Source: Eledone cirrhosa (lineage: Eukaryota). From it: DNA of 64,000 nt. A model generated the notes under the pieces. That model was not told the DNA's origin, searched no databases, and worked only from the letters and a program-made list of their open reading frames with translations. The position numbers and the translations under genes are program-made. The stretch's first letter is position 1. Each line of letters opens with the position of its first letter. The stretch is taken from positions 62,620,001 through 62,684,000 of the forward strand of contig OZ024745.1 in assembly GCA_964016885.1 (NCBI GenBank), read 5' to 3'. This document shows, piece by piece, positions 1,567 to 59,764 of this stretch.

Positions 1567-2441
1567 TAGGATTTCGCTTCAAGCATAGCTTTATACAATA
1601 TGTATAAGTATTTCGTATCTCCAAGGAAATACGGTTTTAGGAAGCCGTAGCTATGCAAACACCGGTGGGCTAACGCCCTCTGGTGATGTCCAGCAGAAGC
1701 AAGTGGGACAACCGTCTATGCATTTCAGGCTTAACTGGCCTTCGTCAGGACGGTCTCTCCCACCGCTTGCGACTGCTGGACTAGAAGACAGCCGAGAATA
1801 TATACATTTCTCGTCTGTGTAAATGAGGTGATTAATCTCATTTGCATATGAAGCTGCATAAGTTGACTTAACTTATAATAAAAAAGAAATAGGATTTCGC
1901 TTCAAGCATAGCTTTATACAATATGTATACATATTTCGTATCTCCAAGGAAATACGCTTTTAGGAAGCCGTAGCTATGCAAACACCGGTGGGCTAACGCC
2001 CTCTGGTGATGTCCTGTTGGCGCCAACTTATGCAGCTTCATATGCAAATTAGATTAATCACCTCATTTACACAGACGAGAAATGTATGTATTCTCGGCTG
2101 TCTTCTAGTCCAGCAGTCACAAGCGGTGGGAGGGACCTCCTGACGAAGGCCAGTTAAGCCTGAACTGCATAGACGGTTGTCCCCCTTGCTTCTGCTGGAC
2201 ATCACCAGAGGGCGTTAGCCCAACAGTGTTTGCATAACTACGGCTTCCTAAAACCGTATTTCCTTGGAGATACGAAATATTTATACATATTGTATAAAGC
2301 TATGCTTGAAGCGAAATCCTATTTCTTTTTTATTATAAGTTGAGACAACTTATGCAGCTTCATATGCAAATGATATTAATCACCTCATTTACACAGACGA
2401 GAAATGTATATAATCTCGGCTGTCTTCTAGTCCAGCAGTCA
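1557..2441. mobile_element. Retrozyme-like element, family A (323 bp monomer; 1.4 direct copies then 1.3 inverted copies), flanked by (TA)n
   Basis: The repeat restarts at 1564 and 1887. The reverse-complement copy runs 2024-2441. The junction is the palindrome GTTGGCGCCAAC. Contains a hammerhead. Confidence 0.85.
1711..1754 (-). ncRNA. Minimal type I hammerhead ribozyme (family A)
   Basis: ACCGTC-CTGACGA-AGGC cagttaa GCCT-GAAA-TGCA-TA-GACGGT. Perfect 6 bp stem I, 4 bp stem II, palindromic stem III. A mutated copy (GAAC) lies on + at 2135-2177. Confidence 0.9.
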
Positions 2442-3430: not shown

Positions 3431-3634
3431 GAAGAGAGAGGTAGAACACTGGAATGTAATATCCGTAGTGGTAGAGCACTCAGTCCATGGGACCAGTTAG
3501 GTAGAAGTGGTAACACAACAGTTAGTTCACCAGACCGAGAACAATTGTTTCACCTTAGCGGATCTTCAGCTGAAGATCTGCTAAGGTGAAACAATTGTTC
3601 TCGGTATGGTGAACTAACTGTTGTGTTACCACTT
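3430..3634. mobile_element. Family B hammerhead element with fold-back palindrome (3505-3634)
   Basis: 65 bp arms with 2 mismatches, centred on CAG|CTG. Each arm reads CTGAAGA-TC(C/T)GCTAAGGT-GAAAC-AATT-GTT-CTCGG. Confidence 0.85.
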
Positions 3635-4703: not shown

Positions 4704-4907
4704 AGTAGTAACACAAAAGTTAGTTGACCATACCGAGAACAATTGTTTCACCTTATGCGGATCTCCGGCTCGGACTGAAGATCCGCCTAAGTTGAAACAA
4801 TGGTACTCGGTATGGTGAAATAACTGCTGTGTTACTACTTCTACCAAACTCGTCCCATGGACTGAGTGCTCTACTACTACGGATATTACCTTCCAGGGGT
4901 CTACCCT
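4704..4907. mobile_element. Family B hammerhead element, fold-back copy with diverged arms
   Basis: Homologous to 3430-3634. The minus arm supplies stem I (CCGAG...CTCGG). The plus arm has CTGAAGA..GAAAC-AATG-GTA-CTCGG. Confidence 0.8.
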
Positions 4908-5042: not shown

Positions 5043-5122
5043 CTCCAACTAATTAGTTTCTGCAATGGGATAAAGACATTTACGTAATGAACTGTTGAGA
5101 ATTTCATTGCGTCATCAGGGAG
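5043..5122 (-). ncRNA. Type I hammerhead (family C, inverted copy)
   Basis: Reverse complement of 5663-5742 with intact core. Confidence 0.8.
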
Positions 5123-5662: not shown

Positions 5663-5742
5663 CTCCCTGATGACGCAATGAAATTCTCAACAGTTCCTTA
5701 CGTAACTGTCTTTATCCCATTGCAGAAACTAATTAGTTGGAG
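5663..5742 (+). ncRNA. Type I hammerhead with extended stem II (family C)
   Basis: CTCC-CTGATGA-C-GCAATG[37 nt incl. ACAGTT/AACTGT hairpin]CATTGC-A-GAAAC-TAATTA-GTT-GGAG. Confidence 0.8.
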
Positions 5743-9760: not shown

Positions 9761-9940
9761 GTCATCGGTGTAAACGCCCATTCCTTTTCTTCAATTCGAT
9801 ATTAGTGGTAATCTATATCTATGTTCATGAACCTCGATTAATGACGGAAAGAATACGATCGTTAATAAATAGTGTGTTTAAACTGATATACACATGCACA
9901 CACACGCAAACACACGCATAAACATATATTAAGTATATTT

Positions 9941-9973
<33 letters not shown>

Positions 9974-10161
9974 GTACATACATATATGTATACAGACGTA
10001 CAGTAGTATGTATATATACATACATGCACACATATATATATGTACGTATGGATTCACCGAACATTTATTATAATGCTCGGTGTGTTTGTAAACAAACATC
10101 CCGTATTAAGCCGTAGTGTCCAGCAACCACCGTTGCTCATTTCTTCAACACTGACAAAGGA

Positions 10162-10204
10162 ACGCTGTACTAGTTTCAAGCTTATTAGCTATCGTCAGCA
10201 ACGT
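10162..10204 (-). ncRNA. Minimal type I hammerhead (family E)
   Basis: ACGTTG-CTGACGA-T-AGCT aata AGCT-T-GAAAC-TA-GTA-CAGCGT. The second copy (10594-10636) has a mutated GAAA. Confidence 0.88.
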
Positions 10205-11221
10205 ATACCTTCCTGCCAGATGATTGAACGTCTGAAAGTATATACTTTCCTTATGCATATTAACGGCTGAGCAGCCTAATTTGCATATCGAGTGAGTTAA
10301 TTGGCCGGGCGTACCGAACAGGATAAACGAAAAAAATGAAACGAAATTTCATTTCTCACTCTTAGTACGGCTGTTAGTTAAATATAAGTATATATATCTA
10401 CATACATATATGCATACAAACGTACAGTAGTATGTATATATATATATATATACATGCATACATATATATTTGTACGTATGGATTCACTGAACATTTGTTA
10501 CAATGCTCGGTGTGTTTGTAAACAAACATCCCGAATTAAGCCGTACAGTGTCTAGTAACCATCGTTGCTCATTTGTTCATCACTGACAAAGGAACGCTGT
10601 AATAGTTTGAAGCTTATTAGCTATCGTCAGCAACGTATACCTTCCTGCCAGATGAGTGAACGTCTGAAAGTATATACTTTCCTTATGCATATTAACGGCT
10701 GAGCAGCCTAATTTGCATATCGAGTGAGTTAATCGGCCGGGCGCACCGAACAGGATAAACGAAAAAAATGAAACGAAATTTCATTTCTCACTCTTAGTAC
10801 AGCTTTTACTTAAATATAAGTATGTATACGTACATACATATATGTATACAGACGTACAGTAGTATGTATATATATATATACATACATGCACACATATATA
10901 TATATATATGTACGTATGGATTCACCGAACATTTATTATAATGCTCGGTGTGTCTGTAAACAAACATCCCGAATTAAGCCGTACAGTGTTTAGCAACCAT
11001 CGTTGCTCATTTGTTCAACACTGACAAAGGAACGCTGTACTAGTTTCAAGCTTATTAGCCAGATGCAGCCTCATGCCTTCCATCCTTCATTTTTTCCGTT
11101 TATCGTTTTCGGTGCACCCGGCCGATTAACTCACTCGATATGTAAATTAGGCTGCTCAGCCGTTAATATGCATAAGGAAAATATATACTTTCAGCCGTTC
11201 AATCATCTGGCATGAAGGTAT

Positions 11222-11264
11222 ACGTTGCTGACGATAGCTAATAAGCTTGAAACTAGTACAGCGT
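11222..11264 (+). ncRNA. Minimal type I hammerhead (family E, inverted copy, intact)
   Basis: Identical motif on the + strand. Confidence 0.88.
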
Positions 11265-13464
11265 TCCTTTGTCAGTGTTGAACAAATGAGCAACGGTGGT
11301 TGCTAGACACTGTACGGATTAATTTGGGATTTTTTTTTTACAAACACACCGAGCATTATAATAAATGTTCGGTGAATCCATACGTACATATATATATATG
11401 TGTGCATGTATGTATATATATATACATACTACTGTACGTCTGTATACATATATGTATGTACGTATACATACTTATATTTAAGTAACAGCCCTACGAAGAT
11501 GAGAAATTAAATTTCGTTTCATTTTTTCCGTTTATATATATATATACTAAATATAAGTTTATGCGTGTGTTTGCGTGTGTGTGCATGTGTAAATCAGTGT
11601 GAACACACTATTTCGACGATGGTAACTTTTGTATTAATATCGTTATAGTGCGTATTCTTATAATTCATGTAATGTATCAAAACAGCATCATAAACTACGG
11701 AACAAACTGGTTCTTTAATTGTGGGGAGAAGTAAATGTCACGGCAATCAATATAATAAATATGCAGGACAAGATGTACTTATACACACATGATAGATTAT
11801 GTTTGTCTTTAGTGAAAGTTGCTTTTGATGATGTGAAAGCTGAAGTTGAGTTATAAACCCTAATATTGACACAATTGTCAATAAATGAATTGAATTACTC
11901 TTAAGGTCACATCATGTCCTTTAGAAGAATGCTAATTGAATGACCTTTTACTACTAGCCCATAAAAAAAGTCCTTTAAACACAGGAAATCAGCACATTTA
12001 TATTTATCACCCATCTTTGTTATGTAGTTTATTTCGATTTCATTTTCCTTAAGTTCATCAGTTGTCTGAGTCTTAGAAGTGTCTGGAACAACTAGTTTAA
12101 TGGGTTTTAAACAGATTTTGATTTTTATCTCGCGAGGAAATTTTGCCTTCTATCTATTTTTCGTCTCTGCATTTATCCGCATTTTGTTGCATCTTTGCTG
12201 AATATGCCTTGTAATTTGGTGCTTCTCTAATTGTGACGTTTCCTCAATAGTTATTTAAAGAGAGCGTGGAGCTCTCATATTTTGTTGATAAGATATATCC
12301 AATGTGTATTTGGTATGTTTTCATTGAAGACATTTGACGGTCATGAAGTGTTTCATTGAAGTGGATGCATAGAAGTGTCAAAGGGTTTTGGAAAATCTCA
12401 CATAAAGATATATTGTTTTCAATCCAAGCTTGAATTCAGTTAAGGGATATCAAGCTATGTAGAGTTTCCTTAGTTGTAAAAACCCTTCCTTTAAGCATGA
12501 ACCTAATAAGAGTTCGTACTATTGTATCCCTGTGTTTGTTCTGTTTTATTTGTTTAAGTATATATATATATATTTATATATATATGTGTGTGTGTGTGTG
12601 TATCTCTGTCTGTCTGTCTGTCTGTCCGTCTCTGTGTATAGGTGTGTGTGTATGTGTGTGTGTGTTTAATATAATGCGTGATGTGTGCGTATATTCGAAG
12701 AAGATATATAATAGCGTGAAAATCTTTACAAACGGGAGATGTCCTCGGTCGTTACTTGAGATCTATCTCTCAAATACCAGCTAGGCGCTCTGAACCATTA
12801 AGCCAAGTATACGGGACAACTCTTACCGTCTGAAATTAGATAATTGAAAAAACAGCTTTTTTTAAAGGTAAACAAACATATATGTATTTGGGATATACGG
12901 TGGTTTGATTCCTCTTATATAGAGAGAGCCAGTGGAGATGGCGTTGTACAAGTAAATATACTTACCCACGCACATGCGTTGTATAGGGAGGGATGATATG
13001 TGTTGGTGATGTTGATGATTGTTGAAGTATGGAGACGTGCCTGGTGGTGGGAGCGACAAAATATTTACAGGATCGAATGTTACGATGGATTACAGGTTAA
13101 AAAATGACATATGGAACACGAGGGATGGTGGACGTATAGCGATGTGTATGGTGGTGGTGGTGGTGGTGGTGGCGATGGAGTGACATGTTCGACATTATAT
13201 TTACCGGATCCGATGTTATGATGGTTTACAAGGTAGAACCTGGAAGAGAGGACAGATAGAACACAATGGTACTGACATGAGGGATTCATGGCGATGTATC
13301 TGGGTATGGGGTTGATGGATGCGACATGATATTTACATCTGAACTTACAAAGGGGTGCATGTTATATAAGACAAATGCACTGAGATGAGGGATGGTGTTG
13401 CAAGGCAAAGGTGGTTATCACTATATTAAGTCAGGGTTAGTGTGTGGTCCTCGGCCGAATGTTT

Positions 13465-59555: not shown

Positions 59556-59613
59556 TCCATTTACCAGTGGTTTCTTAAAAGCAAAAAATGTTGCTTTCAA
59601 TCCTCAGAATGAA
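59556..59613 (-). ncRNA. Type I hammerhead ribozyme
   Basis: TTCATT-CTGAGGA-TTGAAAGCAA..TTGCTTTTAA-GAAAC-CACTG-GTA-AATGGA. Confidence 0.85.
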
Positions 59614-59710: not shown

Positions 59711-59764
59711 CATTCTGAGGATTGAAAGCAAAATATTTTGCTTTTAAGAAACCACTGGTAAATG
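59711..59764 (+). ncRNA. Type I hammerhead ribozyme (mirror copy)
   Basis: CATT-CTGAGGA-TTGAAAGCAAAA ta TTTTGCTTTTAA-GAAAC-CACTG-GTA-AATG. Confidence 0.82.

What the first reader, a model, noticed from the sequence alone, without database searches (positions are those of the whole stretch)
9972..11533. Family E: ~435 bp hammerhead monomer, 2.5 tandem copies plus inversion, carrying its own microsatellite
Seen: each unit holds a TA/CA-rich stretch that varies in length, one minimal hammerhead and an octamer. The tandem run breaks inside stem II of the third hammerhead (11059) before inverting. Inference: retrozyme-type rolling reverse transcription that also spreads microsatellite seeds.
Basis: partly seen in the sequence, partly recalled or inferred. 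Interest (0 to 1): 0.75.

Follow-up and report, generated by a model that had tools for sequence, protein, structure and literature searches.

The report
Hammerhead retrozyme with Penelope insertion footprints
This is one two-armed insertion of a 432-base non-coding repeat, present in thousands of copies in this genome, that carries a hammerhead-ribozyme motif predicted (not tested) to cut its own RNA and that was likely copied in by the enzymes of Penelope-type jumping genes; it is an ordinary member of a known class.

Summary
A 432-bp unit is repeated 2.6 times (9958-11059). After 26 unrelated bases comes an inverted 1.04-unit arm (11086-11535). Each unit carries a TA/CA-rich stretch of variable length and a type-I hammerhead motif on the strand opposite to the tandem run. 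Two of the four motifs here are intact. The run does break inside stem II at 11059.

The family is dispersed: 4,370 exact copies of the 41-nt ribozyme core and at least 6,287 exact end junctions in the 3-Gb genome. Ends (RNA sense) are fixed at two sites about 56 nt apart in 48 of 56 arms. Starts vary. 42 of 56 ends abut (TA)n. Head-to-head pairs always combine one end of each type (18 of 18, plus 9 of 9 in fetched loci).

These are the published hallmarks of insertion by Penelope-like elements, which are abundant here. This is therefore a metazoan non-LTR retrozyme, a new member of a known kind.

Self-cleavage, circular RNA and rolling reverse transcription remain inferred, because no RNA run could be read. 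Whether the element makes (TA)n or targets it is open. This scan has reported the same architecture for other families of this genome.

The parts
9867..9938 (.). Left non-element flank. It is an inverted repeat of 11542-11613 and is unique to this locus.
   Evidence: I10: 72 nt, 93% complementary; a 35-mer of it, with up to 2 mismatches allowed, occurs only twice in the genome, both times here.
9943..9992 (.). (TA)25 tract abutting the 3' end (RNA sense) of the left arm.
   Evidence: period 2, 25 copies; junction listing.
9955..11059 (-). Left arm: 2.6 tandem units of 432 bp, with the RNA (hammerhead) sense on the minus strand. The 3' end is of the short type (site s~165-168; unit sequence is recognisable from about 9972). 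The 5' end is at 11059 (s358).
10163..10203 (-). Intact hammerhead core (stem I 5' strand, CUGACGA, stem II, GAAA, palindromic stem III ACUAGU, GUA cleavage triplet, stem I 3' strand). The predicted cut lies between 10168 and 10167.
   Evidence: Rfam alignment of the identical copy.
10595..10635 (-). Hammerhead copy with two substitutions (G12 to C; G to U in stem III). Predicted inactive.
11021..11059 (-). Truncated third hammerhead. Only the part from the stem II loop onward is present.
11060..11085 (.). 26-nt filler between the two arms, with no match to the unit.
   Evidence: (gap 26).
11086..11535 (+). Right, inverted arm: 1.04 units, RNA sense on the plus strand, 5' end at s207. The 3' end is of the long type (s224) and is followed by (TA)5.
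11223..11263 (+). Intact hammerhead core of the inverted arm.
11478..11535 (+). 'Tail': the stretch between the two alternative 3' end sites. It is present at the end of this arm only and holds an 8-bp hairpin (AAAUGAAA/UUUCAUUU).
11542..11613 (.). Right non-element flank, an inverted repeat of 9867-9938.

Best explanation
The locus is one two-armed insertion of a dispersed 432-bp non-coding repeat family that carries a type-I hammerhead motif, and it was most likely written into a (TA)n site by the reverse transcriptase/endonuclease of a Penelope-like element (PLE); that makes it a metazoan-type (non-LTR) retrozyme.

Shown:
- The family is in thousands of places.
- Arms have fixed 3' ends at two sites about 56 nt apart and variable 5' ends.
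- Most arms are longer than one unit and run through the ribozyme's cleavage site.
- About a third of the fetched loci are head-to-head pairs with 3' ends outward, and each pair has one short-type and one long-type end.
- 3' ends abut (TA)n.
- PLE genes (RT plus GIY-YIG in one open frame) are abundant in the genome.

Inferred:
- Tandem copies are transcribed.
- The hammerhead, whose stem III is a 6-nt palindrome, would cut as a dimer and give unit-length RNA that a host ligase would circularise.
- A PLE protein, probably a dimer, would bind the hairpin/tail region, cut both strands of a TA-rich site, and start cDNA at one site on one strand and at the other site on the other strand.
- Each cDNA would run more than once round the template.
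- The two cDNA ends would be joined in the middle, here with 26 nt of filler.

Sub-odds: the ribozyme is active, about 0.6. The template is a circle rather than an uncut linear multimer, about 0.55. (TA)n is a target preference rather than made by the element, about 0.65.
For: Copy number:
- 2,695 first-look candidates; all 40 scored are 87-100% identical, on many contigs.
- Exact 41-nt ribozyme core: 4,370 copies, reversed-pattern control 0.
- Exact junction 27-mers: 3,607 long-type and 2,680 short-type. The internal read-through 27-mer occurs 4,562 times.

Ends, in 38 non-redundant loci:
- 48 of 56 arms end at s157-173 (27) or s213-224 (21). Their 5' ends are spread over the unit.
- (TA)>=4 at 42 of 56 3' junctions against 8 of 57 5' flanks. 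The window background is 4-9% of 20-nt windows.

Orientation and pairing, from 191 exact ends on contig C1 up to 88.9 Mb:
- 18 pairs have 3' ends outward, and all 18 combine one short-type and one long-type end (chance 4e-6; one pair is a local duplicate).
- 2 pairs are tail-to-tail (from the lists).
- In the loci, 9 of 9 pairs with both ends readable also combine the two types.

Common origin of the units:
- Units within an arm differ by 4.0% (20 pairs), the two arms of a pair by 4.9% (13 pairs), random copies by 6.4-6.6%.

Ribozyme:
- All invariant core positions are present.
- The Rfam HH9 alignment agrees with the manual fold.
- 0 of 5,000 shuffles match a descriptor of the motif.
- A U.U pair at the base of helix II and palindromic helix III loops are described for self-cleaving axolotl retrozyme hammerheads (passages of PMC7229834).

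PLE hallmarks in print:
- 5' truncation, partial tandems, an adjacent inverted 5'-truncated copy, a 30-40 bp tail often at one end only, and (TA)n preference (passages of PMC8557442).
- Cleavage and extension of both strands of AT-rich DNA, two internal RT start sites with the tail between them, and unprocessed multi-copy RNA as substrate (main text of PMC11167929).
- Animal retrozymes as non-autonomous PLE derivatives (abstract and first part of the Results of 10.64898/2026.07.22.740005).

PLEs here:
- 10,596 GIY-YIG candidates; all 150 scored are over the cut-off.
- A 938-aa open frame has RVT_1 (28.0 bits, just under its 29.6-bit cut-off) and GIY-YIG (over cut-off).
Against: - Rfam does not call the motif: 18.4 bits against a gathering score of 52. 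As a monomer, stem III would have a 2-nt loop, and helix II starts with a U.U mismatch.
- No RNA evidence of any kind. No RNA holder is on record and only DNA-like contigs could be laid.
- The autonomous partner was not found. The unit has no BLASTN match outside its low-complexity stretch in 20 sampled PLE loci.
- In the one PLE studied in vitro, ribozyme cleavage was not needed for insertion and both strands used both start sites alike. Neither the circle nor the one-site-per-strand rule is backed by experiment.
- 8 of 56 arms end elsewhere.
- The 38 loci were the best BLAST matches, not a random sample.
- At this locus the flanks are themselves inverted repeats, and the right arm lacks the left arm's private variants. 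The model does not explain this.
- One contig of a related organism carries a change that breaks a stem I pair (place 10201).
Confidence: 0.8

Rival explanations
1. Same PLE-mobilised element, but the hammerhead is a passenger and no circle is involved. Long uncut transcripts of tandem arrays would be the template, as for the PLE studied in vitro. This rival is nested inside the best explanation and differs only in the template and the role of the ribozyme.
For: - In vitro, unprocessed multi-copy RNA was the dominant substrate and ribozyme mutants inserted normally.
- Arms run through the cleavage site.
- Long arrays that could serve as masters exist: 12.8 units or more in L038, and tens of units at C1:51.77-51.79 Mb.
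Against: - Units within short arms are more alike (4.0%) than units within the long arrays sampled (6.1%). This fits a homogeneous template such as a single circle.
- Copies made from linear templates with 5' truncation should shrink over generations, yet arms of 1.5-2.5 units are the rule.
- The exact ribozyme core is kept in 4,370 copies, though the family is young, so this is weak.
Confidence: 0.4
2. The (TA)n at the ends is made by the element itself: reiterative copying of the UAUAU at its two start sites by a telomerase-related RT. Each insertion would then seed a microsatellite.
For: - Strong asymmetry: (TA)>=4 at 42 of 56 3' junctions but at 8 of 57 5' flanks. By eye, 6 of 19 single arms have (TA)n upstream.
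- Both start sites lie on U/A runs that continue in phase into the repeat.
- (TA)n fills 7.8% of this window, including a 3.2-kb tract.
Against: - Papers read attribute such junctions to target preference and to AT-rich cleavage.
- Some tracts are only 3-4 units long.
- No target-site duplication bracketing arm plus (TA)n was found above the control.
- Two tail-to-tail pairs share one tract, as expected of a target.
Confidence: 0.35
3. An ordinary satellite DNA spread by recombination or segmental duplication, with a chance hammerhead-like motif.
For: Long arrays with a two-unit periodicity of exact cores exist, so DNA-level amplification does occur.
Against: - Thousands of short dispersed arrays with the same two 3' ends, variable 5' ends and different flanks.
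- 0 of 5,000 shuffles give the motif.
Confidence: 0.03
4. A fold-back or MITE-like DNA transposon whose inverted arms are terminal inverted repeats.
For: Mirror-image arms. At this locus even the flanks are inverted repeats.
Against: - The inner junctions differ from locus to locus, arm lengths are unequal, and the two outer ends are never the same.
- The flank repeat is unique to this locus and was not seen in the other pairs I compared by eye.
Confidence: 0.03
5. A SINE-like element mobilised by a LINE rather than by a PLE.
For: Fixed 3' end, 5' truncation and simple-repeat tails also occur in LINE/SINE pairs (recalled knowledge, no call).
Against: Two alternative start sites with a tail at one end only, regular inverted second arms and (TA)n junctions are described as PLE-specific in the papers read.
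Confidence: 0.07

Closest known systems
Metazoan non-LTR retrozymes (Cervera and de la Pena 2020, PMC7229834, passages read; Li, Clavereau and Pollet 2026, 10.64898/2026.07.22.740005, abstract and first part of Results read)
   Same: - Non-coding tandem units of a few hundred bp with one type-I hammerhead each.
- Low GC, many dispersed copies, mostly short arrays.
- Co-occurrence with PLEs.
   Different: - RNA circles are shown for the published cases and untested here.
- The passages I read do not mention the two fixed ends, the pairing rule or the (TA)n junctions. The terms 'microsatellite', 'target site', 'inverted' and 'rolling' had 0 hits in PMC7229834.
Penelope-like element insertion architecture (Craig et al. 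2021, PMC8557442, passages; Frangieh et al. 2024, PMC11167929, main text)
   Same: - 5' truncation, partial tandems, adjacent inverted 5'-truncated copy.
- Tail at one end.
- (TA)n/AT-rich sites.
- Two internal RT start sites downstream of the hammerhead.
   Different: - No ORF: the 432-bp unit is non-autonomous.
- The tail is about 56 nt, against 30-40 bp.
- In vitro both strands used both start sites. Here each pair has one of each.
Amphibian retrozyme hammerheads (axolotl HHR_Amex1/2, newt satellite 2 type; PMC7229834)
   Same: Weak helix III with a palindromic loop, which implies action as a dimer. A U.U mismatch at the base of helix II, as in HHR_Amex2.
   Different: Activity of this motif is untested.
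Plant LTR retrozymes (PMC4918200, search listing only)
   Same: Non-autonomous retroelements with hammerheads that are thought to move through circular RNA.
   Different: Per the passage of PMC7229834 read, they have type III hammerheads in LTRs, a PBS and a PPT. None of that is seen here.
L1 twin priming (recalled, no call)
   Same: An inverted arm arises when the second DNA strand also primes on the RNA.
   Different: In twin priming the two segments together cover the RNA once. Here both arms start at defined 3' sites and overlap in content.

Membership tests
Hammerhead ribozyme, type I | Invariant core: CUGANGA, GAAA, A15.1-U16.1, a cleavage triplet ending in a non-G base | tested here: met
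   CUGACGA ... GAAAC ... GUA, then stem I. This is present in 2 of the 4 copies at the locus and in 4,370 exact copies in the genome.
Hammerhead ribozyme, type I | Three helices around the core | tested here: inconclusive
   - Stem I: 5 bp plus an extension.
- Stem II: 4 bp, with a U.U mismatch at its base.
- Stem III: 2 bp with a 2-nt loop as a monomer, so feasible only as a 6-bp intermolecular palindrome. The unconstrained cofold did not itself return that helix.
Hammerhead ribozyme, type I | Rfam gathering score | tested here: not met
   HH9 scores 18.4 bits against 52. There is no hit at gathering score.
Hammerhead ribozyme, type I | Self-cleavage | not testable with these tools
   This needs in vitro transcription of monomer and dimer constructs.
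Metazoan non-LTR retrozyme | Tandem non-coding units of about 150-450 bp, each with a type-I hammerhead, in many dispersed copies and without LTR/PBS/PPT | tested here: met
   There is no open frame of 150 aa or more in 9955-11535. LTR, PBS and PPT were not searched for separately.
Metazoan non-LTR retrozyme | Expressed as linear and circular unit-length RNA | not testable with these tools
   No RNA holder is on record. Only contigs could be laid.
PLE-mobilised (non-autonomous PLE) element | Fixed 3' ends at two nearby sites (tail), variable 5' truncation, partial tandems | tested here: met
   48 of 56 arms; 3,607 and 2,680 exact junctions.
PLE-mobilised (non-autonomous PLE) element | Adjacent inverted 5'-truncated copy, with the tail at one end only | tested here: met
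   18 of 18 pairs on C1 combine the two end types. So do 9 of 9 pairs in the loci.
PLE-mobilised (non-autonomous PLE) element | AT-rich or (TA)n insertion sites | tested here: met
   42 of 56 3' junctions, against a 4-9% background.
PLE-mobilised (non-autonomous PLE) element | Autonomous PLEs present in the same genome | tested here: met
PLE-mobilised (non-autonomous PLE) element | Sequence similarity to the pLTR or 5' region of a partner PLE | tested here: inconclusive
   No match in 20 sampled PLE loci out of more than 10,000 candidates. A translated comparison timed out.

The most novel reading that the evidence does not exclude
In the cell, the two reverse-transcription start sites of Penelope-type enzymes are divided between the two DNA strands. 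Every head-to-head insertion has one arm started at the short site and one at the long site (18 of 18, plus 9 of 9). In-vitro work did not see this. It points to an asymmetric enzyme dimer that copies one small, probably circular, RNA from both ends of a break. The same telomerase-related enzyme may also lay down the (TA)n tracts it appears to target, which would make these elements a source of this genome's very abundant TA microsatellites.
Probability: 0.3. Interest if true: 0.6.

Novelty: new member of a known kind. Interest (0 to 1): 0.4.

Why it matters
The family adds little as a kind: animal retrozymes and their link to Penelope-like elements are in print. Its value is as data. Thousands of young insertions with cleanly readable ends show, in a natural genome, the two start sites, the tail at one end and extension of both strands. 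One in-vitro study describes these features only in part. The strict one-of-each pairing of ends and the one-sided (TA)n are quantitative constraints that any model of Penelope-type integration has to meet. The family would also be a convenient substrate for testing whether RNA circles are the template.

Tried and rejected
- RNA evidence. The look-up of sequencing runs listed no RNA holder (the first try did not complete). Laying X9, X12, X13 and X14 gave contigs only, with no starts or ends. X9 shows summed depths of 1e5-1e6 over the unit against about 10 in the unique flank, which is only a hint of very high copy number. Units are about 96% conserved everywhere, so there is no power to see it.\n- Partner PLE. 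BLASTN of the unit against 20 PLE loci found nothing outside the low-complexity stretch. A tblastx run timed out.\n- Target-site duplications. Only TA repeats scored above the mismatched-locus control.\n- Inverted duplication of the left arm plus flank, as the origin of the right arm. Rejected: the right arm shares at most 1 variant with any left-arm unit over their overlap.\n- Simple twin priming on one RNA. Rejected: the inner ends of the long-type arms are not fixed next to the short-type site.\n- Snap-back copying of one cDNA. Rejected: arms are unequal and their ends differ.\n- 5' ends within the hammerhead. 10 of 57 arm 5' ends fall in s353-377, against 3.3 expected (P=0.0015). About 4 of 12 pairs, by my own arithmetic on the values, meet symmetrically about the ribozyme's self-complementary centre. 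This hints that the two cDNAs join at palindromes, but it is too thin to claim.\n- Earlier notes of this scan. None near this place and none by sequence. Eight on other families of this genome describe the same architecture.
Full report
WHAT IS THERE

Tandem Repeats Finder reports one long-period array in the window: 9958-11059, period 432, 2.6 copies, 91% matches. To its right, after 26 unmatched bases (11060-11085), lies an inverted copy of 1.04 units, 11086-11535. Each unit has a TA/CA-rich stretch of about 100 nt. Its length varies in 2-nt steps: 50-72 nt between two anchors in the 53 of 74 units from 38 loci that hold both anchors, with the longest pure (TA) run at 8-28 nt. This stretch folds into a long hairpin, which explains the sub-threshold microRNA-like Rfam hits on it.

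THE HAMMERHEAD

The motif is on the strand opposite to the tandem run. Read on the minus strand it runs 10203 to 10163:
- five bases of stem I;
- CUGACGA;
- a 4-bp stem II (AGCU/AGCU, loop AAUA, with a U.U pair at its base);
- GAAA;
- a stem III that is the palindrome ACUAGU;
- the triplet GUA;
- the other strand of stem I.

Of the four copies at the locus, two are intact (10163-10203 minus, 11223-11263 plus). One has G12 to C and a stem III change (10595-10635).

Rfam does not call the motif at gathering score, nor at E<=10 in a 2.5-kb search. Given only 101 nt, Hammerhead_HH9 aligns over its full length in the same register, with 18.4 bits against a gathering score of 52 and E=0.015. A descriptor I wrote (core, stems I and II, minimal stem III) matches once per unit on that strand and in 0 of 5,000 dinucleotide shuffles of the unit on either strand. 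A U.U mismatch at the base of helix II, and a very weak helix III with a palindromic loop that makes the ribozyme work as a dimer, are both described for self-cleaving axolotl retrozyme hammerheads (passages of PMC7229834). The motif is therefore a credible minimal hammerhead. Its activity is predicted, not shown.

THE FAMILY

The window lies in a 3.0-Gb assembly. The unit finds 2,695 first-look candidates; the 40 scored are 87-100% identical and lie on many contigs.

Exact-pattern counts, each with a reversed-pattern control of 0:

| Pattern | Copies |
|---|---|
| 41-nt ribozyme core | 4,370 |
| Internal 27-mer | 4,562 |
| Long-type end junction, continued by (TA)4 | 3,607 |
| Short-type end junction, continued by (TA)4 | 2,680 |

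Contigs of one coded DNA-like run pile up to summed depths of 1e5-1e6 over the unit, against about 10 in the unique flank. This is only a hint of very high copy number. Copies differ from the majority by 3.6%, so the family is fairly young.

ANATOMY OF INSERTIONS

I fetched 40 loci, 38 of them non-redundant. They were chosen as the best matches, not at random. I described every arm in RNA-sense coordinates: s1-432, ribozyme core from s349, predicted cut at s379|380, TA/CA hairpin at s68-168.
- Of 56 arms whose 3' end lies inside the locus, 27 end at s157-173 and 21 at s213-224. Eight end elsewhere.
- The 5' ends are spread over the unit. There is an excess inside the ribozyme: 10 of 57 at s353-377 against 3.3 expected, P=0.0015.
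- Most arms are 1.3-2.8 units long and run through the cleavage site.
- The 3' junction holds (TA)>=4 in 42 of 56 arms, the 5' flank in 8 of 57. The background in this window is 4-9% of 20-nt windows.
- About a third of the loci are head-to-head pairs, with 5' ends abutting and 3' ends outward.

Among the 191 exact ends listed for contig C1 up to 88.9 Mb, there are 18 pairs with 3' ends outward and 2 tail-to-tail. All 18 combine one short-type and one long-type end; the chance of that is 4e-6, and one pair is a local duplicate (from the lists). In the fetched loci, 9 of 9 pairs with both ends readable do the same. The window's own locus follows the rule: the left arm is short-type and the right arm long-type.

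Units within an arm differ by 4.0% (20 pairs) and the two arms of a pair by 4.9% (13 pairs). Random copies differ by 6.4-6.6%. This fits one event copied from one template or from closely related ones.

WHAT IT MATCHES

These are the published hallmarks of Penelope-like element (PLE) insertions:
- In vitro, a PLE protein cleaves and extends both strands of AT-rich DNA. It starts reverse transcription at two adjacent internal sites with the tail between them, and it uses unprocessed multi-copy RNA (main text of PMC11167929).
- The order hammerhead, then start sites downstream, is the same here.

PLEs are abundant in this genome: 10,596 GIY-YIG candidates, with all 150 scored over the cut-off. 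Open frames of 844-1,096 aa occur. One 938-aa frame has RVT_1 at 28.0 bits, just under its 29.6-bit cut-off, together with GIY-YIG over its cut-off. I did not find the partner. Twenty sampled PLE loci share no detectable DNA similarity with the unit, and a translated comparison timed out.

MECHANISM

Shown: the architecture and the counts above.

Inferred: transcription of tandem copies; dimer-type self-cleavage; ligation to circles; binding of a PLE protein, probably a dimer, at the hairpin/tail region; cleavage of both strands at a TA-rich site; one start site used per strand; copying more than once round the template; and joining of the two cDNAs in the middle.

The template was intact across the cleavage site. 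A circle and an uncut multimer both fit. The lower divergence within short arms (4.0%) than within the long arrays sampled (6.1%), and the persistence of arms longer than one unit, make me lean slightly to a circle (0.55).

Whether (TA)n is target or product is open. The literature says target. The one-sidedness (42 of 56 against 8 of 57) is not what a cut in the middle of a tract predicts. My search for target-site duplications was uninformative.

WHAT THE MODEL DOES NOT EXPLAIN AT THIS LOCUS

The 72 nt beyond each (TA)n (9867-9938 and 11542-11613) are 93% complementary inverted repeats. They occur nowhere else in the genome. The other pairs whose flanks I compared by eye show no such repeat. 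The right arm does not share the left arm's private variants, so it is not a later inverted duplication of the left arm with its flank. A pre-existing small palindrome centred on (TA)n is the simplest reading, and it is untested.

VERDICT

The retrozyme reading is supported as to kind. Rolling reverse transcription and microsatellite seeding are not shown. The element is a new member of a known kind.

This scan has already reported the same two-armed, two-end architecture for other hammerhead families of this genome (310, 422 and 466-478 bp).

Supplements of the papers were not read. The preprint's supplementary tables could hold families or species that bear on novelty.

Noticed in passing
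window 19264-22490: A 3.2-kb (AT)n microsatellite, about 1,615 repeats at 90% matches. (TA)>=4 runs cover 7.8% of the whole window.
   Followed up: partly
window 1711-1748 (-): Another hammerhead-like motif: CUGACGA, a 4-bp stem II, GAAA, a palindromic stem III (AUGCAU), and a stem I of 6 bp or more. It probably belongs to another retrozyme/PLE family.
   Followed up: no
window 3536-3603, 4775-4809, 22951-22984: Related CUGAAGA...GAAAC...AATTGTT motifs. At 3569|3570 two copies meet head-to-head exactly at the palindrome CTTCAG|CTGAAG.
   Followed up: no
window 5090-5118 (-) and 5667-5695 (+); 59559-59607 (-) and 59715-59763 (+): Two further pairs of near-identical motif-bearing segments in inverted orientation.
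   Followed up: no
G000 C1:51.772-51.793 Mb and C1:49.584-49.588 Mb: Long arrays of the same family in which the exact ribozyme core recurs every ~842-857 bp, that is every second unit. This indicates a two-unit higher-order repeat amplified at the DNA level.
   Followed up: no
L053:8828 (+), L055:7194 (-): Hammerhead-like motifs near PLE ORFs in this genome. The first is directly followed by (TA)n; the second is followed by TA-rich sequence.
   Followed up: no
G000 C1:73135785-73135836; L027:4404-5341: Tail-to-tail pairs of arms, one long-type and one short-type end, that share one short TA tract.
   Followed up: partly
window 12585-12665: A (TG)40 microsatellite about 1 kb downstream of the insertion.
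   Followed up: no
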